Of a stretch of 64,000 nt of DNA, positions 22,779 to 62,481 are shown one piece after another; within the stretch, counting starts at the first letter, position 1; each line of letters opens with the position of its first letter. A model generated the notes under the pieces. It was not told the origin of the DNA. It saw only the letters and a program-made list of their open reading frames with translations, and ran no database searches. The position numbers were made by a program, and so were the translations under genes. This DNA comes from Octopus sinensis (Eukaryota), in assembly GCF_006345805.1 (NCBI RefSeq), contig NC_043010.1, positions 28,706,001 through 28,770,000 of the forward strand. The letters run 5' to 3'.

Positions 22779-22820
22779 ACTATGGACATGTTTCAATCTG
22801 TTAGACCTCATCAGTACAGC
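22779..22820 (-). ncRNA. Type-I hammerhead ribozyme motif (partly decayed)
   Basis: Minus strand: gctgta CTGATGA ggtc-taaca-gatt GAAA catgT C catagt. Helix III is palindromic (acatgt); the first pair of helix I is mismatched. Confidence 0.55.
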
Positions 22821-23314
22821 CTACTGAAGCCTGCTAATCAGTTGACATATTTTTATATATAAAAGATAAAAACAAAAGTTACGAACATTTTTGGGACAGT
22901 AAAGATAATTAGATTAAGAAATAATCTATTGAATCCACTATACATTGTTTTTGTTTTGTTAATTGAAATTTAGCATATTCTGTCATTCTTGTTATCAAAT
23001 TTAAAGCACACATTCTCCTTTTAAACTGAGGTTGAATATGATTATAGTTTTTTTTGTTTGCATTTGACATGCTTTGTATTCAGTTAGCTTTTTTTTGTCT
23101 GGTATTGGGATAAGTTGTTCTGTTAATGTTTTTTATAAATGGCATCCTGTTGACAGTGCAAATTCTCAGAATACGTAGTTTATGTGAGGCACACCAAAAT
23201 ACCTTATTATTTTACATAGCTCTCCTTAAACCTGTAAGTCAGTTGTTTGTGGGGTTGTTTTTGCTGTTAATTCATTGATGCTTAAAGATAACTTTTTCAA
23301 ACTTACTGCTGCTG

Positions 23315-23540
23315 CTGTGAGCTGGTAAAATCATTAGCACACTGGACAAATTGTTTAGTGGCATTTTGTCTCTGTCGTTACATTCTGAGTTCAAATGCTG
23401 CCAAGGTTAACTTTACTTCTCATCCTTCCATGATTGATAAAATAAAGTACTAGTTGAGCACTGAGCTTGATGTAACCAACTAGCCCTCTCTGCCAAAGAT
23501 TTTCTGGCTTTGTGACCAGAGTAGAAAGGATTATTATTAT
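23315..23540 (+). mobile_element. SINE family A copy with (ATT)n tail
   Basis: Full motif series ending gtagaaaggattattattatt. Confidence 0.8.
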
Positions 23541-24200
23541 TAAGGTGATGAGCTGGCAAAATCATGAGGACACCAGGCGAAATGCTTAGTGGTATTTCGC
23601 CTGAATTCAAATTCTGCTGAAGTTGACTTAGCCTTTCGTCCTTTCAGGGTCGATAAATTCAGAGTGACTCTGGGGTAAAATATACAAAGCCCAGTATACC
23701 CATCATGACTACCCATTTGATAGGGTATACCAGGCACATGCATCACAACCATATGTGCGAGACATAGTGATCTCATATTAAGATAAACAGCGCATGACTT
23801 TGCAGGTGGGGCCCAGTTAGGATTTTTTTCAGGTTGAGTAGCCCATCCTGCTCAAAAAGTCCCTGAATAAGAGTTGTTTAAAGAATGTTGAACAAAACAG
23901 CCATGTTTCGAGAGGTGAATTATCCAAATCCCAAAGAATTCCTCACAACACATGGCTATGATGCTGCCCCACTACTTCTGCTCGTGATCAGAGATGCACA
24001 TATCATCAACCACTAAGGGACATGCTCAACCGGTTACGGTCGAACAACTGACAAGCAAATCTGTAGTATTGAGCAAAATATTTGCTGTAGCCCATCTTTT
24101 ATACCAAGACAAAACAATGTACATGATAACACTTGCAACCAGTTAAGATCAAAGGCCATGAGAGCCACTGTCTGCTACTGCATCAGGGCTTTTATTATTA
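23541..24200 (+). mobile_element. Family A head fused to a ~540-bp unrelated body (long or composite non-autonomous retroposon)
   Basis: Head aaggtgatgagctggcaaaatc...cctttcagggtcgataaatt, then non-A sequence ending gcatcagggcttttattatt. Confidence 0.55.
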
Positions 24201-24760
24201 CCGCCTTTAACTGGGAGGGCAAGGCAGTTTTCTTTTGCCTAGTGGCTGTAGCGAAAGAGGTTGTATGGTGGACCCGTTTGAAAGGGCTAAGGTCAGACAC
24301 TTTCCTCTTTGGCCCAGGCCTCATCAACTTTTTCAAGTTCCACTTGAAAAGGAAGGTGAGAGTAGAGAGGGAAGTGCTGTCCAATAGCAAGTTTGCTGAA
24401 AGGTGGATAAATGTTGCAAGAATGGCTAGTATGAAAGGAGCCATTCTGAGGTTACAATTGTGATTTAAAAAGGTAATATAAAAGGAGAAAGGGGCTCTCT
24501 ACCCACCTTTTGACCAGTCTCCCGTTGGCTTTTATGGATTTTTTCCACCAGGAACCTTTCGTAACGCCTCCACCTATTGGGAGTTTTTCGTTGTTATAAT
24601 TTTGATTGTTACACTGTTTTTACATGGTTTTTTTAGAAATAGACAAAACCCTTTGTAACCTTTCGTCCTGTTTTGTCCCTTTTGTGTTATAATTAATTTT
24701 TGTCAGCCCTTGTAGCCAATAAAAGAATTAATTATTATTATTAATTATTATTATTATTAG
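24201..24760 (+). mobile_element. 5'-truncated L1/Tx1-like LINE 3' end
   Basis: Peptide ...LVAVAKEVVWWTRLK...FFKFHLKRKVRVEREVL...FAERW resembles the ORF2 C-terminus of Tx1/L1-group elements (from recall). It is followed by a T-rich UTR, AATAAA and an (ATT)n tail. Confidence 0.55.
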
Positions 24761-27700
24761 TAGTAGTAGTAGTAGTGGATTTGGTAGATAGATACTGAAA
24801 GACGCCTGGTGTGTGTGTGTTTGGTGAGACATGTTTTTCATAGAAGACTGGAAATGAACAACACCACTTGTAGGATAATGATTCCTATTTACAACCATCA
24901 CATAGTCTAGACATGGGTACACACACACACACACAAATGATAATGATATTCATTCCATAGTATATTATGGTATAGTCAAAAGAAAGCACTGTTTGGTTAA
25001 CTGTTGTTAAGTCTACTTAAAGCTGAAGCTTTGAGGGACTCTGCCAAACACAATACATTAGAAATCACCCAGATTTTGTTCACTTGTATCTTATCAACAA
25101 TATAAAGAATAAGAACAAATACTGTCAGCTTTACCATGATTTGAACCCTTCCAATTCTGAACTGCTTGAGACCGCCCTTGGTCCTATGATAAAAAAAATC
25201 TGTATTAAAGTGATTTCAATTTTACCCCTTCCATAAAAATGTTCTGGTAATTTATGTTCTAAACACCAGCGGAATAATGACAAAATTATTTTACTAAATT
25301 TTTCATTATTTTCAAAATTAATTGAAACAAAGTCAGCATATTTCAACAGAAATAGGGTAACAAAAAGGTTAACCCATACATAACAAATTTATAATAAATC
25401 ATAGATGTTGGTTAGATGATTGCTCTAACAAATATGCCTGCTGCACTTTGATATCAAATATTCATCAAACAGTTGCCTACAAATGAATTATTTAATATAA
25501 AGTGTGTGAAAAAATTATTAACCAATGATAGTATTCATTGCACCAGTAGTAATAGTGTGTGTTGAGCAGTAAATACAAAAGTAATTTTGGAAGACAAGCC
25601 AAAAGGCAAAAACAGAAAACAATGCTACAATGGACTTTGTGTAAATCATCACTTTAAGATGTGGGCCTATAGTTGGCCACTTCAGCACCAAAATTGCTTG
25701 TGGGTATCTTTGGAATGAGAAACTGCATGTACTACAAGACAAGACAAATGATACCAGAGGGAGAGAAAGCTGTGCTGAGCCCCAATTGACTGGAGTAGGG
25801 AGGTTCCCCACATGTGTGTGGGTGGGTTACCTTGTCTGTTTAACATTTCCAGAACATATCTTGTTTTAATTGCTTTATATAATTTTGTGTTTTTAAATCA
25901 TCATCAGCACCATTCACTTTTCCATGCTTGTATGTATCAGTCAAAATTCATTGAGGCAAATTTCCTCTAGCCAGATGCCCTTCTGGTTGCCAACATCCAG
26001 CAATTTCCAAATTAGTTAATATTTCCTCTTGTCCTTTAAACACAGACATCTATGTATGTAGATGTTTATATCCATGCTTATAGGGGTGAGAAGGTTTTTG
26101 TTGGAGCAGTAGTTTTCAAAATTGGATGCTCCTCTTCTTAGTGCCAACCAATGAACCATGAAAGCAACTGTTTAATCAGCTAAACTGAATGGAGCAGATA
26201 AAATATGGTATTGGTTGCAAGATTTGAACCAATTAACCTGTGGTCATTAATTCAGTAACCTCACAATCATGAGCTATACACACACTAAAACCTTCAGACT
26301 CATCACAAGCTTTAAATTTCCACAATCCCTGATGATCTGTCATAGTGATAATTAATATTTCTAAAGTTGTGCATTACATTACACTGCTAAAGCTGTGTTT
26401 TCTAAAAGACTAATTACTTTTTCATGTACAGCTCTGATTATTTCAGTGATGTGCTACAAAAATTTCAAAAGCTTGAAACTACACCTTGCATATCAGTATT
26501 GTAACTTCACAGGCATGTACACTCACAGACACAAACAGTACACACACATACACACACACTGCAGTCATTAAAAGTGAAGTAAAATGGATTATCTCTATTG
26601 GTTTCAAAGATGAATGTGTTACTTTGATCAGTTGAATTACCATTTAAGTAGCTGAGTTTTCCACAGACAAGTGTTCCCTGAACATAATCTGAGCAAAATC
26701 AACATGGCACAGTATATGTCGAAAAAGCTGAGCCCTTGGTTACAGCTACAGTCCACCCAGAAAGCTTCCCCACAGTTTCTGTGTACTTAGTCATAATGCT
26801 AAGACTTGGGTTAACCTAACAAAAGATACTTGCTCAAATGCTATGTAATGGGATTAACCAAAGACCTTGTGATTCTAATTAAATCCACAGATGTGTTCTC
26901 CCCATTTCTCTGTTCCTTCTATCAGAACTACTATAATGACTCTCTTCATTTGAACTTCCAAGCTATGTGCCCTTCCATCTTCACCTCTGCTGAATTTCCC
27001 CTCATACACCCACATCTCTTCTCATCCTGAAGCGTCGTACCCAATCCTTTTTACCCTGGACTACAAACCTCTGCAACTCCCCCACTGAGCTGTGTGTTTC
27101 CTTACAGCCATTACAGTAGTTCACCAAGTTTGACAAAAAACAAAAAAAGAATCTTTAAAAACACAATTTTGCCTCCACTTACAACAAGTAACACCATGTT
27201 TACAGCAGTCATTTACAGTTAAGTGGACTGGACAATGCTCTAGAGTTAAGTGCCTGTGGCTGTGGTTACATCATTACAACATTGGTGACAGGATACTTAC
27301 TGTTGAGCTTCCTGTCACTTTAGTGACAGGGACAGAAAAAGGGATGAATGGGCAATTGGCTGGCTAGCTGGTTGTCTGTCACTCCTGATTTAATGACCAT
27401 CTACAACTCTCACCTTCATTCCCACTTCAACATTTCTCAGAGTAAAATAAGCAGACAATATTTACAATACATTCCTCGACCCTTCTAACTACGGCACTAT
27501 TTACTCAGCTGCTGTAATTATATGAGAGCAGAATTACCCATATTCCTCTCCTTTCTTGTGCTACTAGTTATCCCTCTCCTTGAAACCACTTCCCTTACCA
27601 CCCATCTTGCTCCCCTATCATCATCATCTTTTTTTCCCATTGAATGCCCTTTTCCCCTGAACACTCTCTTATATCTGTCCAACACAGCCCTCTGTGGATC

Positions 27701-28635
27701 CTGTCAAAACTGTCCCATTCATGATAGTATGGAATATGAGTATTAAATGAAAATGATGGTGATTATTACATGTTTGTACAAGGGTTCAGCAAGGTACAGG
27801 CATGACTGATTAAGAAGTTTGCTTTGCAAACAAGTGGCTTCAGGATCAGTTCTACTGCATGGTGGTTTGGGTGGTGCACGGATGTTGATATTCTATGTTG
27901 TTACCATTTGGACAAACTGGTGGTGGTATTGACATTTTTCCTTGACAGACATTATAACCAGTAGCTCTGTGTTTTCAAAGACCTGGAATGAAAAAAAAAA
28001 TTCCTTAACTTTAAAATTAGGGTTGATGACAGAAAGTGCATCTTACCATAAAATCCTGCCTCAAAATAGCTTTCATCGAACCCATTCTTGAATGGAAAAA
28101 TAGATTTGAAATTAACAAACGTGTAATAGTATTACATGAATAATAGTTTCTGATTTGGACACAAGGGTAGCAGTTTTGAAGGAAGTGGGTTAGTTCATTC
28201 CGTTGACCCTATAGTATCAATTATTGTTTGGTGACTGAAAGATGTTATTGTATTATTTGCTCATATTAGTTCAAACTAAGTGAAAGACTTTAATCAACAT
28301 TTCTGGGCTGAACACTTTATTACACATTCTCTCAGTTTATTCAGTTGTGTACAATACAGACCAGATCATTAGAGAAATGTTACTAGTCGACTATTCTGGA
28401 GAAGTTTCATGAAACTAGAGCAGTAATACTTCACTTACATCCTCACGAAGGACAAAACTTACACCTATTTTCTCACAACAAATAAACTTTAACCAGGTAC
28501 TTGTGAGCTCACAGGGAACATTGAGTGTTTTGAGGGGTTGTGATTTTTCTAAGAAATAAAATATTTAAACAATCTTCAGTATTTAATTTTAAACCTTTTG
28601 TTACCATATTTCTGTTGAGATACATTTTGTATGTT

Positions 28636-29018
28636 TCTTTTACTTGTTTCAGTCATTTCACTGTGACCATGCTGGGGCACCACCTTGAAGGGTTTTCTTA
28701 GTCAAACAAATCAACCACAGGACTTATATTTTTAAGCCTGACACTTATTGTATCAGTCTCTTTTACCCAACTGCTAAGTTCGTGGACATAACATGCCAAC
28801 ACTGGTTATCAAGCAGTGATGGTGGGGGACAAACACAAAGGCACACACACATAGATACGTGTGTGTGTATTTATTTATTTATACGCACACTTATATATCG
28901 GGCGTCTTTCAGTTTCCATTTACCACATCCATCCACAAGGCTTTGGTTGAACCAAGGTTATAGTGGGTGACACTTGCCCATGGTTCCATGCAGTGGAACC
29001 ATGTGGTTGGGAAGCAAA
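28636..29018 (-). mobile_element. SINE family B copy nested in a piggyBac-like MITE remnant
   Basis: Family B motifs. The flanks (28589-28630, 29020-29130) are the reverse complement of parts of the 25140-25373 element that ends ...aaaaggttaa. Confidence 0.65.
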
Positions 29019-31067
29019 ATAACTGTCATTATTAAAATGGTGTTTGGTACATAAATTTGCATGAAATTTTGATGGAAGGTTTTAATGTAGATTTCTTTAA
29101 AACAAAAAGTTTGCATTACAGAAACAAGTTCAAAACATTTTTGCTAGGATTAAGATAAACATAGGACAATGTGTTATCAGTGATCAGAAACATGACATGT
29201 TGTGCCAAGGACCAGTATATAATTTCATTGATAAGTTCTTACCTTCTTTAATAATTTCTACATAAATTTAAAACAGAAAGCACCAGTCCATGTTATAAGG
29301 AGTATGGATAACAAACCACTGCACAAAATTAGCTTCTGTTTCATTACATTTTATTTGCTTTTTTTTTTTTGTTTTCTTTTTACAAGGTAAAGGACTGGGG
29401 GGTATATGTAAATCATTAATTTGTGGAAGGAGGTACTAAGGAACCAAAAAGTTGAGAGCACTGGACTGGAATTTCATTGTGATTCTTAGCAAGATATTTA
29501 ATTCTTCATTACCTCTGTTCAGCTGTGAAGAAATAGACACAAGGTTTGTGTAGAAAAGTTATCTGAAATAGGACCATGCACCTATCTGAAGTGGGTGTGG
29601 GTTATTGAACTGAGGACTAAATTTTTAGGTTCATCTATTATGTAAAAGGTTAACTTCACTATGTTAGCTGTGTAGGTGGAAATGGTCATGGGAATGTGGA
29701 TCTAACTTTCTCTGTCTTCAACATTATTAATGTTAGTAAGGTCCTGGGAAACTAGTTCTGGGCTTCGTGTTTCATTCTCTATCATTGTTATTATTGTCCT
29801 AACTTCACCCAGTAGTGGGGCCCTGACTTGGTAGTTCCAGGTTTTTGAGGAGTGTGGAACCACCTATTAGTCATTAGTGTTTCTGGGCCTTCTCTGACTT
29901 GGAGTAGTAGCACTTGTCAGGGTCCTGGTTACGGAAAAATTCCAAGCACAACCCTCACTGCCTTGTGAGTGCCTCAGGAAAGGAGGTTAGGGAAGTCAAA
30001 GTTGACAGCAAATCTAGGAGTGGAGTACCTCAGGTAGTCCAGTGTTCTCTTTGATACCCTTCTGGCAACTCCAGAGTAGGTGGGGGCTCTCCAGCCCTGT
30101 AGGGCAATTCATCTGGAAGGCCACTCCAATGTAAAAGCTAACAGCTTGCTGCTCACAGCAGCCATCTTAGCCTGTTGAGTCATTATGATGAGATCTCTAA
30201 GATTAAAGAGAGATCAGATTGTGTGGACTGAGTTTTTGCTTTAAACTACTAAGCACAAGCAGGAAGAAGAGCTCTGCAGTGATGGAGATGAAAATGACAG
30301 GTGCTAGATGATCTTGGCAGTCATTGCCTCATCTTTGCATATGAGCAGCTTCTCTTCCACTAGCCTTTGTTTAATTAAGATGGTATGGTGTGATTTGGTT
30401 GATATTTCTAGTAAATTAAAGAACTGTATCAAAGCTCTATCATTGTAAGTGCCATTGGTTGCATAATTCACTAGTGTACATGATATCACTGCAAAAATGA
30501 TGAATGTTTGGGTAGCTTGGAGACCAAACACATCTTTTGACAGGCAAAGTTACCCTCTAGTAGCCAGCATGTTATCTCTGGGGAACTTATCTTTCATCTA
30601 CTAGGAAAACCAGAAATAAGGAACAAAGGATCTCATTATTTCGAAAATATGATTTTAAAATTTGAAATCTGTGAAACCAAAATTATTTTCACTAACTTAG
30701 AGTGTGTATAGGTGGGTTGGTATTCAAATTTTAAATAACAAATTAAAAAACGAAACAGAAATCTAACTCAAATTAGGAATAAGTAAACTAGTTTACAATT
30801 TGTCTTTGAATTTTGGTTCAAATTTCTATTTTGGATTCTGTTGATTTTTACTTGAGATTATCATCATCATTATTGAATGTCCACTCTTTCATGCTTGCAT
30901 AGGTCACATGAAATTTGTTGAGGCAGACTTTCTATGGTTTGATGCCCTTCCTATCACTAACCCTCACCTGTTTCCAAGCAAGGTAATACTTCCCCATGGC
31001 CAGACATGTTTTCCATAGAAGACTGTAAATGAGCAGCATCACTTTTATGACAATGATGATCATTTAT

Positions 31068-31339
31068 AGTTCTATATTTAACAGATGAGGAATTATCTAC
31101 ATTATTTACATTCGACAGATATTTGTCCTCATCTTGTTTGTTGTTAACACGTTTCAGCTGATACACCCTCTAGCCTTCTTCAGGTGTCTTGGGGAAATTT
31201 CGAACCTGAAATTCCTGAGGTATTCTTCGATGTTATTATTATTATTATTATTATTGTTGTTGTTGTTCAGGTCACTGCTTGGAATTGAACTTGGAATCTT
31301 GGGATTAGTAGCCCGCGCTCTTAACCACTACGCCATATG
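31068..31339 (-). mobile_element. tRNA-headed short element carrying a defective hammerhead motif
   Basis: Minus strand: tggcgtagtggttaagagcgc (A box) ... aagttcaattcc (B box-like), then (AAC/AAT)n, then gacac CTGAAGA aggct...agct GAAAC gtgtt. Confidence 0.6.
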
Positions 31340-32614
31340 TTGAAACATAAATTTTTTTTTTTTTTGCCTTTTGGTGCAAAATGCATTCTTTATATCACTA
31401 GCTGGGAGATAAATCCCTGTCACCTCCAGTGCCAAGACCATCAGATCATGTGATTTTGACCTTCCTTGGCCTTGTCAATGATGGACACTTAACCACTAGA
31501 AATAGCAGTGATTTATCTCCCTGCCAGGGAGGGATAAGTAAAGGCACCTTGCTGTAAGAGATAAAAGGAAGGTTGTGCCACCAGTATGAAAAATGCACCC
31601 AGCAACTCACAAAACTATGAAGCATGGGGTAAGGTGGGGTAAAATTCAGTTTTATTCTAGGTAATGAAGTATTAGAGTATGAGCAAGGTGGGGATGGAGC
31701 AATGCAGGTTGTTGTAGAGGATTTGGCTACTCATATATCTGCTGACTAATTAAAAAAAAGAAATTTAATTGAAATTTATTTCAGTTTAAGTAATTTATAA
31801 CTGTTTACTTATAAGATTTTGAGACTAAAGTGTGATTTACATTTTATTGGGTTCCTCCACCACCCATCTTAAATGTTTTTGCTAAAGTATATTGAAGCAT
31901 AGGAAAGTTTTTTATTCTGAATATAGCAATTAAATATAACAGAAATAAGTGATGTAAAGTGGATGGTCTATTGTAAATAAATGGTTTAAATTGGTCCACT
32001 TGAGAATTATGTGATCCAGTAAGATGATAAAATTATAGGAATAAGTAATAACGACAATGATAGTGACCTATTGTGAATGAAAGTCTTTAATTGGTCCACT
32101 TATGAAATACTTGTGAAATACTTAAAGAGAATTAAGGAAGTTTCACACACATGTACACACATACATGCCGATACATGTACATGCACACACACACACATAT
32201 ATTTATATATATATAAATATGCATGCACATGCATATATGTATTATATTAATAAGAATGAATGAACATTATATTTAACTTTGAACATATACTATCAAATTT
32301 GGTAAGTTGTATGTTTATATTGGTAATGCTATAACTCTGTAATTTCTACATGCTCTAGACTTTTGTTTGCTTCAGAAAGGCTTTAGTTGTGGTAACTAAA
32401 GACAAAGTTAAGAACCAGATTTCATCTAAATAGTAAAGTATATCTCCTGTAATATTGTAGGTAGACACAGGGAGGTGTTCCACATGGTTACTTGGTATGT
32501 GAGAAATAGTAGTTAAGTCTACCTCATCACACACAAAGATAGACGGATACATTGGGTATTGTAGTCCCTTGATACACCAAAAGGTAGGATAGTTACTAGA
32601 TGAACACTTAATAA

Positions 32615-33190
32615 GATAGTGAACTAGCAGAACCATTAGCACATTGGACAAAATGCTTAGCAACATTTCTTCTGGTTTTACATTCTGAGTTCAAAATCTG
32701 CCAGGGTCGGCTTTGCCTTTCATCCATTTAGGGTTGATGAAATAAATACCAGTTGAGAGCTGGGGTTGATGTGATTGACTATTTCCCCACCCCCAAAATT
32801 TCAGGCCTCGTGTCTATAGTAGAAAATATTCTTATTATTATTTAAAGCAGTGAGCTGGTAGAATTGATAGCACACCAGGCGAAAAATGCTTAGCGGTATT
32901 TCATCATCTCCATGTTCTGAGTTCAAATTCTGCTGAGGTCAACTTTGCCTTTCATGCTTTCAGGGTCGATAGAATAAGTACCAGTTGAGGGGGGGGTCAA
33001 TGTAATTGACTATCTCCCTCCCCAAAATTTCAGGCCTTGTGCCTGTAGTAGAAAATATTGTTATCATCATTATTATTATTATTCGGATGGCAAACTGGCA
33101 GAATCAATAGCATACAGGGCAAAATGCTTTGTAGCATTTCATCCGTCTTCACATTCTGAGTTCAAATACCACCAATAGTAGAAAGTATTA
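32615..33190 (+). mobile_element. Three head-to-tail SINE family A copies
   Basis: Units start at about 32615, 32845 and 33085, separated by (ATT)-rich tails. Confidence 0.85.
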
Positions 33191-33259
33191 TTGTTTGATT
33201 TGACTCAAATTTGTTCTTATTCTTGGTAGAATTTATGTGGATAGTGGATTACTGCTTGT

Positions 33260-34400
33260 GGCCTCAAGCTCTCAATAACTTTTAAGTGCTCAAAATTTTT
33301 CTGATAATCTTCCCCATTTCTGAGAAGCAGACTTTCTATAAAAGCTCTACGGGACATTCTATTCCAATCTCCTTCAACCATTTCTCTATATCTTTACTCA
33401 CAATTTCTGATGTACCAATTATTACAGGCACAATCTTACAGTTTTCATATTCCAAATTCTCGCAATTTCAAATTTTAAAGGATTGTATTTTTTAAAATTT
33501 TTTCATCATCTTTCTTTACAATCCAGGAATCAAATGGATATGATTGATTAATTAGTGAGCAACTTTGCTTCTCCTGGTCTATTATTGTTATGTCTGGTTT
33601 ATTATTTTCTGGCTTATCCATTTGAATAGGAAAATCCCATAAAAATCTTGCATTTCTTCAACTTAAACAGTCTTTCAGGTTGATTATCATACAAGTACTT
33701 CCAGTGGAAAACTTATGCCTCCATTTCTTATATTCACCCTGAACCAATTTGGAACATTCTGAAACAATGTGTGCCATTATTTCATCTCAAATTCCACACA
33801 CCCTACATTTTGCTGAAGCCTCCCCATACACTTATTTTCTCAAGTTTGTTTTTAATACTTGATCTTGAGCTGCTCTGTTTCTTTATTCCAATGCTCTTTT
33901 TTCAACCAAGCCCTGGTTTTTGTTTCACATTCATCTGTGGTTTTCCAAAACTGACCATGCAAAGGTTTCTCTACAATCTCTTTAACATGCTCTTTTCGAA
34001 TTTCATTTTTGCCCTTTTCTTTTATTCCACACTCGATCTGTTCTTTATTCGTTGTCTTCAGTAATTTTTCTGTGCTGTTCTGTAAATATTCTACTAGGTT
34101 TTTTTTTTTCTTTCCATCTATGCACACTCTTTCACAGCAATTAAGCTCCTTCCACTCTGGTCAAGTATAACTAGTTATCAGCTTTGGGGCAATGGGCTCT
34201 ATACAATACCAATAGCTTTCTAGTTTTTCTGTCAAGTTTCTGTAATTAGCTGTTTGTCCATTCTACAATTCCAACTCCTTATCTGATTACCAATACTGCT
34301 CTTGAATTTATTGTTTCAATAGCATTTTTTAAAATTCAGCTTTGTAATATTTTTCTCACATTTCCTACTTGTAATTTACTCCATCTCTTCATGTTTTATT
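33260..34400 (-). mobile_element. Decayed Dong/R4-clade non-LTR retrotransposon, 3' part
   Basis: Minus-strand remnants KPLHGQFW...WLKK...KETE and WDFPIQMDK...NKPDITID match motifs of R4/Dong elements with a restriction-like endonuclease (from recall). Many frameshifts. Confidence 0.7.
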
Positions 34401-34406
34401 TTGAAC

Positions 34407-34891
34407 TACATGGTTCTGGGTTCAGTCCCACTCCATGGCACCTTGGGCAAGTGTCTTCTACTATAGCCTCAGGTCAACCAAAGCCTTGTGTGTAGATTTG
34501 GTAGACGGAAACTGAAAGAAGCCCATCATATGTATATATATATGTGTGTATATATATATAAAGGGTAAAGACCCCTTTCGGTCATGAATGACCATGGGAT
34601 TGCACCTAGAAAGTTACCCTCCTAGACACAAGTCCGGGCAAGGTTGTTTATGGAAGACCAGCAACCGCCCATGCATACTGGCCTCCCCTCTCCACGCCAC
34701 CAGTGTTATCCAAGGGAAAGACAAAGGTCAATACAGCTTGGCACCAGTGACGTCGCAACTCATTTCTACAGCTGAGTGAACTGGAGCAGCGTGAAATAAA
34801 GTGCCTTGCTCAAGAACACAACACACAGCCCAGTCCAGGATTCGAGCTCACAACCTCACGATCGTAAGCTCGACACTCTAACCACTGAGCC

Positions 34892-34923
<32 letters not shown>

Positions 34924-35140
34924 GTATGTTTGTGTGTCTGTTTGTCCTCCCCAACATTGCTTGACAACTGATGCTGGTATGTTTACGTCCCCATAACTTA
35001 GCGGTTCAGCATAAGAGACCGGTAGAATAAGTACTAGGCTTACAAAGTATAAGTCCTGAGGTTGATGTGCTCAACTAAAGCCGGTGCTCCAGCATGGCCA
35101 CAGTCAAATGACTGAAACAAGTAAAGGAGTAAAAGAGAGA
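34407..35140 (+). mobile_element. SINE family B, sense copy interrupted by a family D element
   Basis: catggttctgggttcagtcccact...ccttgggcaagtgtcttctactatag and, after the insert, ...actgaaacaagtaaaggagtaaaagag. Confidence 0.85.
34561..34891 (-). mobile_element. SINE family D, near full-length, nested in the (TA)n tract of a family B copy
   Basis: Minus-strand head ggctcagtggttagagtgtcgagct...gagctcgaatcc and gtgttgtgttcttgagcaaggcacttt. Flanked by (TA)n on both sides. Confidence 0.85.
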
Positions 35141-35659
35141 GTATCATTGTCACTATCATTATTGTTTTAAATGTTAACATTTGTTTTACTGTGTTTGCAT
35201 GCAGCAAATGAAATTTGTTGAAGCTGATTGTCCATACTGGATGCTCTTCCTCTCCCCAACCTTACTTGTTTCCAAACAAATATTTTCCCATAACCAGGCA
35301 TGTGTCATGGACTGTTAAAAAGAAAGTGACACCACCTATATGGTGACACTTGTTTACTACTATAGCTTGTCAAGAAAAGAATACACAAGTGCACATAGAC
35401 ACACATGCACACACACACACACATGTATGTGTTGTGTATATGTATACAATAGACTTCTTTCAGTTTCCATCTACCACATCTATTCATAAGGTTCCGGCCA
35501 GCTGGGTCTATAGTAGAAGACTCTTACCCAAGATGCCATACAACAGGACTGAACTTGAAGCCACAAAGTTGGGAAACAAACTTCTTAACCACATGGCTGT
35601 GTGTGTGTGTGTGTGTATGTAGGTATGCGTGTGTATTTGTGTGTAAATGTGAATATATA

Positions 35660-35705
<46 letters not shown>

Positions 35706-35810
35706 ATATACCGGAGTAAACACATAAATGTGAAACAAGGTGGAAAAAAGAGTACTCAAATACCAGTGGTAGAGTTATATGCTTTATTTTAAGCAGCAGA
35801 AAATTCAACA

Positions 35811-35857
35811 AAATCTGTTACTCCGAGTTTCTCGTTGCCATTCATCAGACAGTTTTT
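35811..35857 (-). ncRNA. Type-I minimal hammerhead ribozyme motif
   Basis: Minus strand: aaaactgt CTGATGA a-tg-gcaa-cg-a GAAA ctcggagT A acagattt. Confidence 0.65.
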
Positions 35858-36463
35858 GCTAGAATGGAACCGATATATCAATTCAATCTAGACTCTTACA
35901 AACGCTACACCTTTAAAAAAAAAATGGACTTGTTTGATTGGCCCTTTAGAAAAAACGGTCAATCTTCGAGCGATAAACAAAAAGGTCAAAAATATATGTA
36001 TATATATATAAAAACTTATAAAAATTATAAAATTCGAGGAAAAAACCTTACATTGAATAAAATACATATTGACGTTAATGAAGAAAGTATAATTAAAGCA
36101 TAGAAATTAAAACCTATTATAAATATTACACTGCAATACATATTTATATTAAAGTGTACATATGTATATCAACATACACAGAAGGATGCGTGCAAACGCC
36201 ATACATGTACAGATGTATACATATAAATCTAAAATATACACATAAATGCATGCGTACATATATGCACGCAATCCATCTCGCACGCAAGTTAAAATCATCT
36301 ATGTAGCGATTCTCATATACTGAGTAAGGGGGATGTAGAGTTGCATTAGTATCAGTTAGAGAAAAAAACGACAGAAAGGAAGAGAGAGAAAAAGGAACGA
36401 AGAAGGGGGAAGGAAAAAAAGAAAAGGGAGGGGTGGGGGAAAAAACGAAATAAGAAAAAAGAA

Positions 36464-36510
36464 AAAACTGTCTGATGAACGGCAACGAGAAACTCAGAGT
36501 AACAGATTTT
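36464..36510 (+). ncRNA. Type-I minimal hammerhead ribozyme motif on the sense strand of the intron
   Basis: aaaactgt CTGATGA(36472-78) a-cg-gcaa-cg-a GAAA(36489-92) ctcagagT A(36501) acagatttt. Helix I is ctgt/acag and helix III is actc/gagt. Confidence 0.7.
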
Positions 36511-36656
36511 GTTGAATTTTCTGCTGCTTAAAATAAAGTATATATATATATATATAAGAGTTGTAGTCTGTTAGGAATGTGGTAGAGTACAGTCTAAAGC
36601 TCATCCATATTCAAATACATACATGTATATCCATACCTATATTTAGGCAACTATGT

Positions 36657-37295
36657 ATCATCATCATCATCATCATCATTTAACGTCCGCTTCCATGCTA
36701 GCATGGGTTGGACGGTTCAACTGGGGTCTGGGGAGCCCGAAAGCTGCACCAGTCCAGTCAGATCTGGCAGTGTTTCTACAGCTGGATGCCCTTCCTAACG
36801 CCAACCACTCCGAGAGTGTAGTGGGTGATTTTATGTGCCACCGACACAGGTGCCAGACGAGGCTGGCAAACGGCCACGCTCGGATGGTGTTTTTATGTGC
36901 CACCGACACAGGTGCCAGACGAGGCTGGCAGACGGCCACGCTCGGATGGTGGTTTTTTATGTGCCACCGACACAGGTGCCAGACGAGGCTGGCAGACGGC
37001 CACGCTCGGATGGTGTTTTTATGTGCCACCGACACAGGTGCCAGACGAGGCTGGCAGACGGCCACGCTCGGATGGTGTTTTTATGTGCCACCAACACAGG
37101 TGCCAGATGAGGCTGGCAAACGGCCACGATCGGATGGTGCTTGTTACGTGCCCACAGCACGGAGGCCAGTCGATGCGGTACTGGCTACGGCCACGTTCGG
37201 ATGGTTTTCTTATGTGCCACGTGCCACCGGCACTGGTACCACAAAGATACAAATTCCATTGATGTTCATCTATTTTGATTTGTTTTGATTTGATT
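36657..37295 (-). mobile_element. Retroposon family C, full-length young copy with an expanded internal tandem repeat
   Basis: Both ends match the reverse complement of 4562-4932, and the interior holds five 62-64-bp units plus a diverged one. Confidence 0.88.
36829..37210. repeat. 62-bp GC-rich minisatellite (5 near-identical units plus 1 diverged)
   Basis: atgtgccacc anchors at 36833, 36895, 36959, 37021 and 37083; a diverged unit starts at 37146. Confidence 0.95.
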
Positions 37296-37311
37296 TTTTT
37301 TTTTTTTTTTT

Positions 37312-37342
<31 letters not shown>

Positions 37343-37443
37343 CCCTCTCGGATTTGTGGGTATATATACATACCCACATAGATAAGTAAGTAAACCTACC
37401 ACTTTGACTTGCGCATACATATAGCAAATCACATGTGTATACA

Positions 37444-37502
<59 letters not shown>

Positions 37503-37503
<1 letters not shown>

Positions 37504-37739
37504 TTATAAAATTTATGAATAAATGAAAGAATGGAGTTGAACGACAAATTAACAAATTTCCTTTATTTTCGACATGTTTCGAAGGCTGCATATTCCTAAT
37601 TGTGAAGGAATAAGGAGTACATTATGCCGCTTTCTCATCAGGAAAAACAAGGAATTTATGTCAACATCAAGATTCACAAAAACTTTTGTTGATTTGTCGT
37701 TCAACTCCATTCTTTCATTTATTCATAAATTTTATGAAA
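37503..37739. repeat. ~54-bp inverted repeat enclosing a hammerhead motif (Penelope-like terminus)
   Basis: 37503-37556 is the reverse complement of 37685-37739 with about 2 differences. Confidence 0.85.
37555..37657 (-). ncRNA. Type-I hammerhead ribozyme motif with extended helix II
   Basis: Minus strand: ttccttgtttttc CTGATGA gaaagcggcata...tatgcagccttc GAAA catgT C gaaaataaaggaa, with a GUC cleavage triplet. Confidence 0.75.
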
Positions 37740-38075
37740 ATACACACAAATTTCCACACGAAAACACGTAGTCTCTGCCCATGGCACATAACTTCAACCG
37801 TGTTATTTCTGATGTGAATTTGCTACCCAGGTATCGGTTAAACGAATTATCCATAAAAAGATATTTCATTTTTCTACTCGTATATATATATATATATACA
37901 TATCCATATCTCTCTTCTTATCTCCAACTTTGCATGCTGACTCTCATACAATCACTCCCATAGATGTAAGTGTGTGTGTATGTATATATATATACCTACA
38001 CATCTACACATTCGTACATAAATACACATATTTTTAATAATAAATTCATACAAATATACACAGACCTGGACTTAT

Positions 38076-38146
<71 letters not shown>

Positions 38147-39129
38147 AATGAGTAGATACTTTCATGGTCTATAGAGATGTAGGTGGGCACCCGTACATAT
38201 AAATAGCACAATCCAACTAGAAGTTTACTGAATTATTATTAATTATTCACAATACTATTATTTGATAGTGCTGGGTCTAGAGATTATGTATATACATATA
38301 TAGAGAAAGAGAGATAAAGAGAGGTACAACCAGAGACTCATACTTATATATATAGAGAGTAAAGGGAAAAATATATATACACAGGATACTTAGGTAGGGT
38401 GTGTATATGTGAGTATGTATCCAACCACTTAATACTAAAGGTCAGCTTAAGAAGTTCACATGTGTAGCCAACCATGAAGAACAGATCAGAGATACAATCA
38501 AATAGCAGACCAATCCCATTTGAATGCCAGCCAGTACCATCTTCTACCATTCATAGCAGTCCAACAAACACTATCTGTGGCTTCTGAAGTCATTTGACTT
38601 CTATCTCTACCAAAGCTGATATTCTCCCAGTACCACCATATCATTTTAACTTGGCAGCACTGTTCACTCTTTAGTTAACCACTAGTATTATTAATTTTAT
38701 TATTAATAATATACTTATATATTTATTTGTAAATTATTCACTTAGTTTGTCTATGTATGTGCCTTGGGCCATCAAACGAACAAGCAAGCATGGTGAGGAG
38801 AATACGTTTAAATTTCACTTCTCTTACGTAAGTTTAACTGAAGATGGGATAAGAATATTTAATTCAGAGCCCAAAATTGGTATTAAGCTATCTGCTATTT
38901 CCTCTACAACCTCTGCAAAGGTAGGAGCCTAATTTTTATTCCTTGCCCGATTTTCACCATGCTTGTTCATAAAGTGAGCTATCTGTGTATTCCGAAGTCA
39001 TTTGACTTCTATTTCTATCAAATGCTGGAGCACCATTGTATTTTTACACTTTTACATATGATTCTTTATTGACTGATTTCTTCAGGGTGGTGGGATTTCA
39101 TATTACCACCCCTGTATGTGCCTTTACTT

Positions 39130-39790
39130 TGGTCATTAGCACCTTTAGTATATGAGGGAGTTTGATTCTGCTGCCTTCATCTGTACCTCTTGCTGGGCTG
39201 TTAATTCATCCAGTATTGTTGAAAGGAGAATGTCCAGTTCCTTTTTGAAGACATCCACATCTACATTGTGTAGGTTTCTTAGGACATTGAAGAGCTGTTG
39301 CAGTATCCCATCCTCACTTTTGGACAGTATCCTTGGTACAATACAATGGCACCCAGTTCAGGCTCAATGCTGAAATTAGGTACTAACCCTTCTAGAATTT
39401 TCCATATGTAATTATTACATATCTATCATGTCTTCACTCTAGGGAATAAGGTCATAGTTTTTCAGCCTTTCCCTGTAACCCATCTGCTGCACTGTTCCAA
39501 TATTTTAGTGTAGTGACACTGAACCACATCAAGCTCCATTGTTAGTTGGGTGTGCTGTGTTGACCACAGCTGAGAGCAGTAGTCCAGGCAACTGAGAACA
39601 AAGGTCCTCCACAGGGCTAGGACGACTTCTTGATTTCTTATCTTGAAGGACCGTATTATCCATCCTGCCTGTTGTTTGTATTTTGGTGCCATCTTGGTAA
39701 TATGCATATGAAATGATGCATCATTACACATACTGATCCCCAAGTATCTCACTGCTTGTGACTCTGGGATTGCTGTGCCTTTGAGTCCTC
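39130..39790 (-). mobile_element. CR1/L2-group LINE remnant (end of the RT domain and C-terminus)
   Basis: RYLGI...GWIIRSF...LWRTFVLSCLDYCSQLWS...LDVVQCHYTKI and a downstream VFKKELDILL. Confidence 0.8.
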
Positions 39791-41912: not shown

Positions 41913-42611
41913 ATATGTAAGAAAGCTTTTTCACGGAAAGACCATCTGAACAAACATGAGCGCACCCATGCAGGCGAGAAACAACACAAATGCACAGTTT
42001 GTGGTAAGGAGTTCTCACAGCGAGCGCACCTTGAGAAACATCGCAGCACTCATGCACATTCACACAATGAGCTGCACAACCAGCAGCATCTTAACACCAC
42101 TGGTGCAACACTTCTACCAGCAGCCTCCCTCTCGTTGCAGCTGACAACACCACTGCCCAGCCTTACAACACAGCAACAACAGCAACAGCAACAACATCAG
42201 TCCACAACCGCAGTGGTTGCAGCTGCTGGCGTGAATTCCAACAATGCTAACCTGACTGCTAATGCTGCATGTCTGCACCACCAAATCGTAGCTTCGGGTA
42301 ACCAGCAACAGCAACAGCAGCAACAACAACAGCAACAACAGCAGCAGGGTTTGCAGGCAACAACAATGATTACATCAGCCCCTTTGGGCATTGTCACCAC
42401 AACTGGTTCATACCGGCTGGAGAACAGCTATGTATGGGCTGGAGGGTTACCAGTGGCCACAACATGGAATGCTGGCTGTGCGGTGGGGACGACAAATAGT
42501 TCAATGCCTTGCTACACAGTTGGCCAAATCAAGTGTGAGTACCCTGATTCTGCTGAAGACTTCCAGACAGCCTTGCAGTATGGCACCAACTTGGACTACA
42601 TATCTTTATAG
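41913..42611 (+). CDS. C2H2 zinc-finger transcription factor, last coding exon (aa 204-435): rest of finger 5, finger 6, Q8 and Q15 tracts, C-terminus
   Basis: T-rich tract followed by TTTTCAG acceptor (AG 41911-41912). It translates [47 protein letters not shown]..., which completes FQCQ|ICKK as C-x2-C, is in frame with ORF 42135..42611, and ends in TAG. Confidence 0.9.
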
Positions 42612-55940: not shown

Positions 55941-56223
55941 TATCTATGTATATATATATTTACACACACATCCTTACATGCATGTGTGTGTGTGTGTGTG
56001 CATATAAACTGAGCAGAAGACAAGAAATGGCTGGGGAGTTTAATGATGTGGAAATAAAATTTTAAACTACCAGTTTAAAAAAGAACTAGTAAATATTCTT
56101 CTGGTCTCTGGTAGTTTAAAAAAAAAATTATTGTTATTATTGTTATACAGTGGCCTTCAGCCAACTTCAAGTGTGAAATTCATTATTAATGTTGCCTTGT
56201 GCCTAGTCAGAAGAAAATATTTC

Positions 56224-56260
<37 letters not shown>

Positions 56261-56262
<2 letters not shown>

Positions 56263-56683
56263 GGTGGTGAGCTGGCAGAATCATTACCATGCTGGGAAAA
56301 ATGCTTCGTAACATTTCTTCTGGCTTCATGTTCTGAGTCCAGGTACCACCAGGGTCAACTTTGCCTTTTATCCTTATAAGTACCAGTTGGACACTGGGGC
56401 CAATGTAATCAGCTTATCCCCTCCCCTGAAATTGCTGGCTTTGTGCCAAAATTTGAAACCATTATTACTTATAGGCAATGGACTAGCAGAATCAGTGGAG
56501 TATTGGACAATACCTTGTTCTATCTTTTTTATGTTCTTAGTTCAAATTTCACAAAAGTCAACTTTGCCTTTCATCCTTCTGGGGGTCAATAAAATAAAGT
56601 ACTAGTCAAGAACAGGGGTTGATTTCATCGACTTTTCTCTTCCCTCATATTTCTGGCCTTGTACCAATAATAGAAACAATTAT
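56261..56683 (+). mobile_element. Two tandem SINE family A copies following an (ATT)n tract
   Basis: aaggtggtgagctggcagaatc at 56261 and aggcaatggactagcagaatc at 56472. Confidence 0.85.
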
Positions 56684-61878: not shown

Positions 61879-62264
61879 TCTCTCTATATATAAAGCTGAA
61901 GTTGTCTGTGTGCGCCAGGTTTGGTAGCCTTCAACTAACACTATCTCCTCCGAGACCCTGTGGCACAAGTTGACCAAAATTGAGAGTATGATAGAAGGGT
62001 TGCTCTTCCTTCCGTAGAAGATAAAATTCAAATCGGACCATGTTAACACCAACAATTATTTACATCAAAAAGGTGCTTTTTTCTATGAAAATCCTTGTTT
62101 TTTACGATTTTTTCACTGCTGTGTCGCCATTTTTCAGTGTATTTCAACCAGAAAAATGTTCACTTGAAGAGAATAATAAGCTACATAATGCAAAATTTTT
62201 ACTTTTCAAAAATTCCAATTCCAGCGGGTCGAAACAAACCCGAGCAACGCCGCGGGCGATACTG

Positions 62265-62268
<4 letters not shown>
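61879..62268 (+). mobile_element. Non-autonomous Helitron (second copy)
   Basis: TC start, cccg...cggg subterminal hairpin, CTAA end (CTRR), A|T insertion site. Highly similar to 18185-18576. Confidence 0.8.
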
Positions 62269-62308
<40 letters not shown>

Positions 62309-62436
62309 TTACATATAATCATATTTAAGATGTTCATGTACACTTGAGCATGGAAAAACAAAACACTGTGCAAATTATCTAATAGCTTATAGACAATATG
62401 GGTGTAAACACATCATGAAGTAGTGAATGTCACAAC

Positions 62437-62481
62437 TGTAAGATGCCCGCATTTCTACATTGTTATGCTTCATCAGTTACA
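62437..62481 (-). ncRNA. Type-I hammerhead ribozyme motif
   Basis: Minus strand: tgtaa CTGATGA a-gcat-aaca-atgt-a GAAA tgc-gg-gcaT C ttaca. Perfect 5-bp helix I, palindromic helix III, AUC triplet. Confidence 0.7.

What the first reader, a model, noticed from the sequence alone, without database searches (positions are those of the whole stretch)
22779..62481. Eight hammerhead motifs from apparently unrelated families in 40 kb, biased to the antisense strand
Seen: hammerhead-like cores at 22779-22820(-), 31146-31188(-), 35811-35857(-), 36464-36510(+), 37555-37657(-), 38832-38888(+), 39900-39990(-) and 62437-62481(-). Apart from the inverted pair, they have different helix I/II sequences but share the core and a near-palindromic helix III. 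Five lie within 35.8-40 kb. Of the two sense copies, one has lost GAAA and the other faces its own complement. Inference: the genome hosts a diverse set of non-autonomous ribozyme-bearing retroelements (Penelope derivatives or retrozyme-like), and active sense-oriented ribozymes may be purged from introns. The numbers are small, so the bias is only suggestive.
Basis: partly seen in the sequence, partly recalled or inferred. Interest (0 to 1): 0.75.

Follow-up and report, generated by a model that had tools for sequence, protein, structure and literature searches.

The report
Penelope hammerhead stubs, no strand bias
The eight self-cutting-RNA (hammerhead) motifs are real but belong to seven common repeat families of an octopus genome, three shown and four likely to be Penelope-type jumping elements or their hitchhikers; such motifs lie equally often on both strands in the introns of 27 other genes, so they likely do not cut host RNA, and one family carries a tRNA-like segment that likely acts as its promoter.

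Summary
All eight motifs exist. They are seven insertions of seven dispersed repeat families in an octopus genome; seven motifs lie in one 37-kb intron of a zinc-finger gene. Four pass a strict descriptor (0.04 expected from shuffles); four are damaged copies of families with intact hammerheads. Three families are tips of protein-coding Penelope-like elements (PLEs; RT/GIY-YIG frames upstream). One is a ~410-nt and one probably a ~340-nt non-coding head-to-tail unit (retrozyme-like). Two are unresolved.

The antisense-purge idea failed its test. In 1.37 Mb inside 27 other genes, intact motifs were 20 sense : 21 antisense, all copies 41:48, single-orientation insertions 22:25. A weak lean is not excluded (11:18 intact without the richest gene). 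The broken sense copy lost GAAA at a CpG, like 8 of 24 family copies.

Likely mechanism: minimal PLE hammerheads need a dimer and PLE protein, so lone intronic copies stay silent. One unusual detail: the family at 31.1-31.3 kb is an ORF-linked PLE with a tRNA-like Pol III head where most short copies begin; my searches found no paper on this. This scan already noted the stubs and that head on other octopus DNA.

The parts
3833..4462 (+). Host gene, C2H2 zinc-finger coding exon (5' start not mapped); ends at a GTAAGT donor
   Evidence: Open frame and Pfam zf-C2H2; donor sequence seen
4463..41912 (+). 37.4-kb intron that holds seven of the eight motifs (six insertions)
   Evidence: Direct joining completes one zinc finger (translations). 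In 4 of 4 RNA-like runs a contig starts on the window at 41913; two carry about 985 letters upstream that do not lie on the stretch. That no further exon lies inside is inferred.
41913..42611 (+). Last coding exon of the host zinc-finger gene
22600..22830 (-). H1: old (72-77% identical) repeat copy; hammerhead 22779-22820. The family has a 5-bp helix I, a 4-bp helix II and a 6-nt palindromic helix III; this copy has an A.C mismatch next to the core. No linked ORF seen.
   Evidence: (114 candidates)
31068..31340 (-). H2: ~285-nt tip of a Penelope/Poseidon-type element: tRNA-like head with A and B boxes (~31265-31340), (AAC/AAT)n spacer, minimal hammerhead 31146-31188 (3-nt deletion at the cleavage site in this copy), fixed 3' end without poly(A)
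   Evidence: (5846 candidates); ORF-linked relatives
35711..36543 (-). H3+H4: one young insertion of PLE family A in (TA)n. Main arm on - (36467 to 35711, hammerhead 35811-35857); inverted short arm on + (36460-36543, hammerhead 36464-36510, which matches the family majority).
   Evidence: (2344 candidates, 97-98%)
37505..37880 (-). H5: young insertion of PLE family B in (TA)n. Hammerhead arm on - (37687 to 37505, motif 37555-37657, intact); inverted arm on + (37685-37880) that begins past the hammerhead and carries the long tail.
   Evidence: (1909 candidates; 29 other loci 88-99% identical)
38553..39051 (+). H6: about 1.1-1.2 units of a non-coding ~410-nt head-to-tail repeat (direct repeat 38571-38618 / 38979-39027); hammerhead 38832-38888 broken by a G12-to-A change at a CpG and by helix III decay
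   Evidence: (40 candidates)
39800..40240 (-). H7: old repeat copy of at least 440 nt; motif 39900-39990 lacks the 3' strand of helix I and has G at position 17. The family core is mostly CCGA (U4C), so this copy's canonical CTGA is likely a CpG decay product.
   Evidence: (363 candidates)
62269..62840 (-). H8: old two-armed insertion (inverted arm 62690-62840 against 62269-62412, 67%); hammerhead 62437-62481 nearly intact; family probably a ~340-nt head-to-tail unit; lies 20 kb past the host stop codon
   Evidence: (71 candidates)

Best explanation
The eight motifs are minimal type I hammerheads at the ends of seven insertions from seven dispersed repeat families, three shown and four likely to be Penelope-like elements (PLEs) or non-coding hitchhikers of PLE enzymes, and as lone intron copies they are likely silent, which would explain the lack of strand preference. 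Shown here: the families, their hammerhead folds with palindromic helix III, linked RT/GIY-YIG frames for families A, B and H2, inverted arms and two-ended tails, a fixed ~410-nt non-coding unit for H6, and the near 50:50 orientation in a 27-gene sample. Inferred from published PLE work: PLE reverse transcription starts a short way 3' of the hammerhead and usually aborts early, so most insertions are 200-800-nt stubs that keep the ribozyme motif, often with an inverted second arm. The motif is expected to fold actively only when two same-sense copies swap their palindromic helix III, and in one PLE it cut only with the element's protein present. A single copy in a host pre-mRNA meets neither condition, so selection would barely see its strand; it then decays neutrally, with CpG sites in the core (C11.1-G12, and C4-G5 in CCGA cores) as hot spots. 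Family H2 differs from described PLEs: a tRNA-like A/B-box head sits about 35 nt after the ORF stop and before the hammerhead, and most short copies begin at its first bases, so it likely serves as a Pol III promoter that yields SINE-like copies of the element's own tip.
For: Families with 40-5846 first-look candidates each. ORF remnants upstream and on the same strand in 11 of 30 family A loci and 4 of 30 family B loci; PF01541 GIY-YIG on the family B frame, E 1.7e-4, just under the Pfam cut-off; RT, linker and GIY-YIG in one family A copy (L305); 35 longer homologues of 568-739 aa. H2: GIY-YIG C-terminus directly upstream of the head in L292; all 39 other scored places match at least 600 of the 621 nt of ORF end plus head at 90-92%; L320 and L323 continue into RT (PF00078, E 6.8e-5). 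Inverted arms in 16/28 A, 19/27 B, 12/20 H2, 8/18 H6, 5/20 H7, 3/18 H8 and 2/12 H1 loci; H2 3' ends form two clusters (256-267 and 285-290), the PLE tail signature described in PMC8557442 and PMC11167929. Descriptor in the intron set: 41 motifs with score >=9 against 0-3 per shuffle; helix III a perfect palindrome in 31 of 41 against 0 of 7 shuffled hits. Orientation: intact 20:21, all 41:48 (p=0.53, 95% CI of the sense share 0.35-0.57), insertions 22 sense: 25 antisense: 16 both; a 25% sense share is rejected at p<0.001. Gene orientation is supported by T>A skew in 103 of 140 tiles and by colinear exons inside the richest gene. Literature: a single min-HHR showed no cleavage and dimers only low cleavage (PMC4209133); the PAc hammerhead did not cut without protein and no RNA-seq reads ended at its site (PMC11167929).
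Against: No ORF was found within 1.5 kb for H1 (12 loci), H6, H7 or H8 (20 each), so their PLE link rests on hammerhead type and insertion anatomy. Without gene K3 the intact counts are 11 sense: 18 antisense, without K3 and M4 9:17, and lone intact insertions go from 7:10 to 3:10 (two-sided p about 0.09, computed by hand), so a weak purge is not excluded. The sample is 27 genes of three families (0.05% of the genome); 'intact' means passing a descriptor, not activity. The tRNA origin of the H2 head rests on A/B boxes and spacing: ARAGORN with a relaxed threshold called 1 of 20 copies and Rfam's tRNA model did not match L093. No cleavage, Pol III activity or RNA over the motifs was observed. 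Clade names are from motifs and BLAST, with no tree.
Confidence: 0.85

Rival explanations
1. Weak purge: lone, intact, sense-strand hammerheads cut a small share of pre-mRNAs and are mildly selected against, while two-armed insertions survive because the inverted arm masks the motif.
For: Window 6:2. The only intact sense copy (H4) has 43 of 45 nt paired with the H3 arm in the minimum-energy fold of the sense strand. Lone intact insertions 7 sense: 10 antisense, and 3:10 without K3; intact copies 11:18 without K3. A preprint reports Xenopus retrozymes depleted from introns, without a strand test (10.64898/2026.07.22.740005).
Against: Full sample 20:21 intact and Fisher p=0.67 for strand against integrity. 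K3 is a real colinear kinesin gene with four lone intact sense copies. Two tandem, identical, intact sense copies 535 nt apart sit in an intron of an SNF transporter gene. The broken sense copy H6 changed at a CpG, as in 8 of 24 aligned family copies. Of the six minus-strand copies in the window two are broken and one is impaired.
Confidence: 0.1
2. All seven families are non-autonomous retrozymes or SINEs that spread through small circular RNAs, independent of any coding element.
For: Most copies are short and non-coding. H6 and probably H8 have fixed head-to-tail units. A 535-nt unit forms a perfect tandem array elsewhere in the genome. H2 looks like a 285-nt SINE in 20 of 20 first loci.
Against: Families A, B and H2 continue upstream into GIY-YIG and RT frames. 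No window copy has two tandem complete hammerheads.
Confidence: 0.03
3. The cluster has been co-opted by the host to regulate processing of the zinc-finger pre-mRNA.
For: Four insertions within 4.2 kb is more than in any of 1268 control windows.
Against: Five of the seven intronic motifs are antisense, three are broken, the sense intact one is predicted to be masked, and families A and B are young (97-99% to other copies) and sit in (TA)n tracts. The control was less sensitive than the window scan.
Confidence: 0.02
4. The motifs are chance matches in AT-rich DNA.
For: Bare CUGANGA cores are not enriched (40 against 29 +/- 6 in shuffles, maximum 44) and a loose scan gives 7 against 2.7; Rfam finds none.
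Against: 4 against 0.04 with the full descriptor; each motif belongs to a repeat family that keeps the complete fold.
Confidence: 0.01

Closest known systems
Minimal and atypical type I hammerheads of metazoan Penelope-like elements (Cervera and De la Pena 2014, PMC4209133; parts 1-2 of 4 read: abstract, results, discussion, start of methods)
   Same: Type I core, short palindromic helix III, many unrelated families per genome, mostly single copies from truncated PLEs, pairs on opposite strands 100-700 bp apart, an extra base between positions 9 and 10.1 (H2, H6).
   Different: Many octopus families have an 8-nt palindrome (27 of 48 motif types), close helix II with a mismatch in place of G10.1-C11.1 (23 of 48; A, H7 and H8 among them), use A at position 17 (23 of 48) or a U4C core (8 of 48) (types are deduplicated motifs, not curated families). 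U4C and a U.U closure are known singly (PMC3088659 and PMC7229834, passages). Octopus is not mentioned in the parts read.
EN+ PLEs: Penelope/Poseidon (PAc of Anolis; Frangieh et al. 2024, PMC11167929, passages and second half of the main text read) and Neptune (Craig et al. 2021, PMC8557442, passages)
   Same: RT followed by C-terminal GIY-YIG, hammerhead near the 3' end, 5' truncation, inverted arm, one-sided tail, (TA)n or AT-rich targets. In H2 an ATG-started frame of 51 codons runs through the hammerhead to the 3' end in 8 of 19 translated copies, which recalls the PAc ORF starting in the hammerhead.
   Different: H2 has a tRNA-like A/B-box head between the ORF stop and the hammerhead; none of my searches returned a paper that describes this. 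No full-length H2 copy was fetched, so the 51-codon frame is not shown to be the ORF start.
Metazoan non-LTR retrozymes (Cervera and De la Pena 2020, PMC7229834, passages; Li, Clavereau and Pollet 2026 preprint 10.64898/2026.07.22.740005, parts 1 and 3 of 5 and passages)
   Same: Non-coding head-to-tail units of a few hundred nt with a type I hammerhead (H6, probably H8; the 535-nt array at L249); proposed mobilisation by PLE enzymes fits their PLE-type inverted arms.
   Different: Here the copies are mostly 1.1-1.5 units, old, and carry PLE-type hammerheads; no circular RNA evidence; families A, B and H2 are ORF-linked and so are not retrozymes.
Schistosoma Sm-alpha / Sj-alpha SINE-like elements (seen second-hand in PMC6765202, passages)
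   Same: A promoter followed by a hammerhead in a short repeat (H2).
   Different: H2 is the tip of a coding PLE and inserts with PLE-type inverted arms; the schistosome elements are described as SINE-like repeats.

Membership tests
EN+ Penelope-like elements (families A, B, H2) | RT and C-terminal GIY-YIG frame upstream of, and on the same strand as, the terminal hammerhead | tested here: met
   A: 11 of 30 loci, with RT, linker and EN in L305. B: 4 of 30 loci, EN only. H2: 39 of 39 other scored places, RT in L320 and L323.
EN+ Penelope-like elements (families H1, H6, H7, H8) | Linked RT/GIY-YIG frame | tested here: inconclusive
   None upstream within 1.5 kb in 12, 20, 20 and 20 loci. The same test also missed the H2 link in its first 20 loci, so absence is weak for H1 and H7; H6 and H8 look non-coding by their fixed periods.
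EN+ Penelope-like elements | 5' truncation with an inverted arm or partial tandem, and a tail on one arm | tested here: met
   Inverted arms in all seven families; stepwise upstream coverage in A; two 3'-end clusters in H2; unequal arms in the window copies of A and B.
EN+ Penelope-like elements | Clade placement by RT phylogeny | not tested
   No tree built. A is called Neptune-like from a Cys-rich linker (motif detail recalled; the feature is named in PMC8557442). H2 is called Penelope/Poseidon-type from 30-37% identity to L307/L311 frames.
PLE minimal hammerhead (Cervera 2014) | Type I core with palindromic helix III | tested here: met
   All seven families; 31 of 41 intron-set motifs are perfect palindromes against 0 of 7 in shuffles.
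PLE minimal hammerhead (Cervera 2014) | G10.1-C11.1 pair, with one extra base after position 9 | tested here: inconclusive
   Met in H2 and H6; H1 and B close helix II with G-C without the extra base; A, H7 and H8 close it with a mismatch.
PLE minimal hammerhead (Cervera 2014) | Self-cleavage as a dimer or with protein | not testable with these tools
   Needs an in vitro assay.
Rfam hammerhead families | Covariance-model match | tested here: not met
   No hammerhead family among 72 matches at E<=5 in the window.
Non-LTR retrozyme | Non-coding head-to-tail unit of about 150-450 nt | tested here: met
   H6 only: period 390-421 nt in 8 of 18 loci. H8 is suggestive (312-382 nt in 5 of 18). Not met for A, B and H2.
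Non-LTR retrozyme | Two or more consecutive units with complete hammerheads | tested here: not met
   No window copy has them. Met by a different, 535-nt family at L249.
Non-LTR retrozyme | Expression as small circular RNA | not testable with these tools
   Only assembled contigs of guessed RNA runs were offered.
tRNA-derived SINE (H2) | Internal Pol III A and B boxes at the 5' end | tested here: met
   Boxes visible in the alignment of 20 copies; a strict pattern matched 8 of 20 H2 loci, 2 of 20 H8 loci and none in the other five families. A tRNA fold was called in only 1 of 20.
tRNA-derived SINE (H2) | Non-coding family with no autonomous form of its own | tested here: not met
   ORF-linked copies of the same family exist.
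tRNA-derived SINE (H2) | LINE-type 3' tail (poly(A) or simple repeat) | tested here: not met
   Fixed 3' end about 85 nt past the cleavage site with no such tail; inverted arms instead.

The most novel reading that the evidence does not exclude
An autonomous octopus Penelope element has captured a tRNA-derived Pol III promoter inside its terminal repeat, so one family yields both coding copies and thousands of SINE-like, hammerhead-bearing copies of its own tip: a SINE caught in the act of being born from its own motor. Together with tens of thousands of strand-neutral hammerheads with relaxed cores, this would make octopus introns genome-scale evidence that PLE hammerheads cut only inside the PLE ribonucleoprotein.
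Probability: 0.5. Interest if true: 0.6.

Novelty: new variant of a known kind. Interest (0 to 1): 0.35.

Why it matters
As posed, the finding is ordinary: PLE hammerhead stubs occur about once per 22 kb in this genome's introns, and the strand bias does not hold. Two by-products have value. First, the orientation test bears on an open question, whether PLE hammerheads cut in vivo: intact sense copies are tolerated in introns as often as antisense ones, which fits dimer- and protein-dependence; my one search for such a test returned none. Second, family H2 shows a coding Penelope element with a tRNA-like internal promoter, a possible route by which a retrotransposon gives rise to a SINE of its own tip. 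It can be tested with Pol III and 5'-end data.

Tried and rejected
Rfam scan of the window: no hammerhead match, only microsatellite-driven miRNA hits. The first descriptor missed families with a mismatch closing helix II and was replaced. A reversed-sequence control gave 0 hits but changes core frequency, so dinucleotide shuffles were used. Ribozyme-free repeats as controls: no global strand bias in five queries (136:114, 88:86, 113:112, 81:85, 24:27) but strong local runs, 20:1 in this window; local one-sidedness is therefore common without any ribozyme. My first reading of H2 as a pure SINE (after) was dropped. Looking for the H2 parent through the octopus protein P0036 led to an unrelated young PLE family. 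tblastn with 60-odd PLE baits found no ORF next to H1, H6, H7 or H8 and none in the window. Pfam gave no hit on most PLE frames. Minimum-energy folds of monomers and dimers say nothing on activity; H6 and H8 monomers fold only modestly better than shuffles (z -2.5 to -3.2, crude pair shuffle). No listed holder was on record as RNA, and reads were laid only on the exon boundary, so there is no RNA evidence on the motifs. About 185 kb of further planned intron sequence from small genes was not obtained. Nine loci that duplicated another locus were dropped before the counts, and 8 of 20 H1 loci (L073-L080) were left out, five of which matched only a flank. Lunse, Weinberg and Breaker 2017 (about dimer cleavage of PLE hammerhead variants) is not held (citation seen); it may already describe the mismatch-closed and U4C variants. 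One search fetched an unrelated paper by a wrong id. PMC13282606 (octopus repeat annotation, passages) lists 30 recently active Penelope families and has no occurrence of 'ribozyme' in its main text; its supplements and Repbase/Dfam libraries were not seen and may hold H2.

Full report
SETTING. The window is G000:C14:28706001-28770000 in a 2.72-Gb genome. It is an octopus: the closest named relatives of a PLE frame from it are Octopus proteins, one of which matches G000 at 100%. The only gene found is a C2H2 zinc-finger gene on + with coding exons ending at 4462 and starting at 41913. Joining them completes a finger, and in 4 of 4 RNA-like runs from four studies a contig starts on the window exactly at 41913 (these are assembled contigs whose RNA status is a guess). 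Motifs H1-H7 therefore lie in one 37.4-kb intron; H8 lies 20 kb past the stop codon.

1. THE OBSERVATION. All eight motifs are present. Rfam matches none, as expected for minimal variants. A loose scan is not convincing (7 against 2.7 +/- 1.6). A descriptor requiring helix I of at least 4 bp, helix II of at least 2 bp (one unpaired base allowed on either side), a self-paired helix III and a non-G at position 17 passes H3, H4, H5 and H8, against 0.04 per shuffle in 200 shuffles. The other four are damaged members of families in which other copies have the full fold: H1 has an A.C mismatch at the base of helix I; H2 lacks 3 nt at the cleavage site; H6 has G12 changed to A; H7 has lost the 3' strand of helix I. 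H3 and H4 are two arms of one insertion. So there are seven insertions: five on - only, one on + only, one on both. None of the possible tallies is significant (p 0.22-0.375).

2. WHAT THE FAMILIES ARE. Each motif with its flanks found a dispersed family: 2344 (A: H3/H4), 1909 (B: H5), 114 (H1), 5846 (H2), 40 (H6), 363 (H7) and 71 (H8) first-look candidates, all lower bounds. Family A is young (97-98%) and 5'-truncated in steps. In 11 of 30 loci a GIY-YIG frame ends about 1.1 kb upstream on the same strand, and L305 holds RT, a Cys-rich linker and the endonuclease in one frame; 35 longer homologues were found. Family B has a GIY-YIG frame upstream in 4 of 30 loci. Both window copies sit in (TA)n and have unequal arms. 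These are truncated tips of coding PLEs.

H2 first looked like a 285-nt SINE: a tRNA-like head with A and B boxes, an (AAC/AAT)n spacer, a textbook minimal hammerhead and a fixed 3' end with no poly(A). Earlier notes of this scan were split between 'SINE' and 'coding element with a tRNA head', so I tested it. One copy in the intron sample (L292) runs upstream from the head into a GIY-YIG C-terminus whose stop lies about 35 nt before the head. A search with that 621-nt piece gave 39 other scored places, all matching at least 600 nt at 90-92%, and two of seven new loci continue into RT. H2 is thus the tip of a coding Penelope/Poseidon-type element. Of 61 aligned pieces, 37 begin within the first 24 nt of the query, at the head; 3' ends cluster at 256-267 and 285-290, the two-ended tail described for PLEs. 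The first 20 loci were ranked by likeness to the window copy, which favours long copies but does not force them to stop at the head. The tRNA origin rests on the boxes; a tRNA fold was called in 1 of 20 copies and Rfam's tRNA model did not match.

H6 is different: past the hammerhead its sequence runs back into its own start, with a period of 390-421 nt in 8 of 18 loci, and it has inverted arms in 8 of 18. It is a non-coding, retrozyme-like unit with PLE-type scars. H8 probably is too (312-382 nt in 5 of 18). H1 and H7 show no ORF and no fixed period; since the same test missed the H2 link at first, they stay unresolved.

3. THE ORIENTATION TEST. I located genes by colinear exon hits of myosin, SNF and kinesin families, left out compact genes on small contigs, and fetched 1,372,820 bases inside 27 genes. 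T exceeds A on the inferred sense strand in 103 of 140 tiles (p 2e-8), which supports the orientation. The descriptor found 45 motifs, 41 with score >=9, against 0-3 per shuffle in six shuffles; 31 of the 41 have a perfectly palindromic helix III against 0 of 7 shuffled hits. Homology search added broken copies. Result: intact 20 sense: 21 antisense; broken 21:27; all 41:48 (p=0.53; 95% CI of the sense share 0.35-0.57); strand against integrity Fisher p=0.67; 63 insertions = 22 sense, 25 antisense, 16 both. A 25% sense share, as in the window, is rejected at p<0.001. Against this: one gene, K3, holds 22 copies; without it intact copies are 11:18 and lone intact insertions 3:10 (p about 0.09 by hand); without K3 and M4, 9:17. 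K3 has further colinear kinesin exons inside the span, and its other long frames read like transposon pieces or have no clear likeness, so I keep it, but a weak lean is not excluded. Five ribozyme-free repeats are also unbiased overall while showing strong local runs. The loss of GAAA in H6 needs no selection: the base lies in a CpG and is changed in 8 of 24 aligned copies. In H7 the family core is CCGA in 8 of 21 copies, CTGA in 7 and a CAA form in 4, so the canonical core of the window copy is likely itself a decay product. Density is one insertion per 22 kb; if this held genome-wide there would be about 80,000 descriptor-passing motifs (rough extrapolation).

4. MECHANISM. Shown: family membership, folds, linked frames, arms and tails, the fixed H6 unit, orientation counts. 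From the literature: PLE insertions are mostly 5'-truncated, often with an inverted arm and a one-sided tail (PMC8557442, passages); reverse transcription starts inside the RNA 3' of the hammerhead, the hammerhead did not cut without the PLE protein, and no RNA-seq reads ended at the site (PMC11167929); single minimal hammerheads showed no cleavage and dimers only low cleavage (PMC4209133); only 1 of 9 Xenopus retrozyme dimers cut in vitro (preprint). Inferred: every stub keeps the motif because it lies next to the priming site; a lone copy in a pre-mRNA has no same-sense partner and no PLE protein and so is silent; selection barely sees its strand; CpG decay erodes it. H4 is in addition predicted to be paired with the H3 arm (43 of 45 nt). 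For H2, the head likely works as a Pol III promoter that starts short RNAs carrying the priming site, which the family's own enzyme then copies.

5. COMPARISON AND NOVELTY. The motifs, their diversity and the opposite-strand pairs match Cervera and De la Pena 2014. Departures (mismatch closing helix II in 23 of 48 motif types, U4C in 8 of 48, A at position 17 in 23 of 48) have single precedents (PMC3088659; PMC7229834) and may be in Lunse et al. 2017, which I could not read. Searches for octopus hammerheads, for a tRNA-headed PLE or Penelope-dependent SINE and for an intron strand test returned no paper that describes them, judged from listings and, for four papers, passages; repeat libraries and supplements were not seen. 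This scan has noted both the stubs and the tRNA-headed family on other octopus DNA, and failed strand-bias claims in other animals; those notes are leads, not support.

6. VERDICT. Observation partly confirmed, interpretation partly supported, purge hypothesis not supported. The finding as posed is ordinary. The class 'new variant of a known kind' rests on H2 alone. Interest 0.35.

Noticed in passing
L249 about 4615-7580 (G000:C1:135002615-135005580), intron of an SNF-family transporter gene: A 535-nt non-coding hammerhead unit repeated 3.75 times at 100% identity, then 1.8 units inverted at 99.8%, between (TA)n tracts; two intact tandem hammerheads lie on the gene's sense strand; the monomer folds far better than shuffles (z about -7). 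It looks like a very young retrozyme array with a PLE-type inversion.
   Followed up: partly
all loci; L214, L270, L116, L249: Several hammerhead families share a GT(A/G)AGT followed by AAATTAC or similar in loop II, which could be a 5' splice site or just a hairpin.
   Followed up: no
window 46500-56700: At least 15 copies of one SINE-like family, all on the same strand (20:1 in the whole window), although the family is unbiased over 27 genes (136:114).
   Followed up: partly
window 36824-37220: A 62-nt tandem repeat (6.3 copies) inside a CpG-rich repeat between the family A and family B insertions.
   Followed up: no
window 12754-13080 (+), 24017-24463 (+), 33852-34160 (-), 39462-39812 (-): Short frames that read like mariner and LINE fragments (likeness recalled, no Pfam hit for the three scanned).
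   Followed up: no
G000 contigs such as C2502, C1794, C7757, C8223, C9002, C12601: Myosin, SNF and kinesin genes with very short interruptions, unlike the long-intron genes on the large contigs. They may be foreign DNA in the assembly, for example from a parasite with tiny introns (inference from recall). They were left out of the intron sample.
   Followed up: no
L306-L315: A young PLE family with intact 765-aa RT/GIY-YIG frames, preceded by a long shared AC-rich region; no standard hammerhead was seen within 1.5 kb of the frames. Earlier notes describe permuted hammerheads in this genome; not checked here.
   Followed up: no
intron sample L161-L300: CpG observed/expected splits the genes into a depleted group (0.2-0.46) and an undepleted group (0.7-0.9: four of five SNF genes and two myosins); this could be used to test CpG decay of hammerhead cores.
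   Followed up: no
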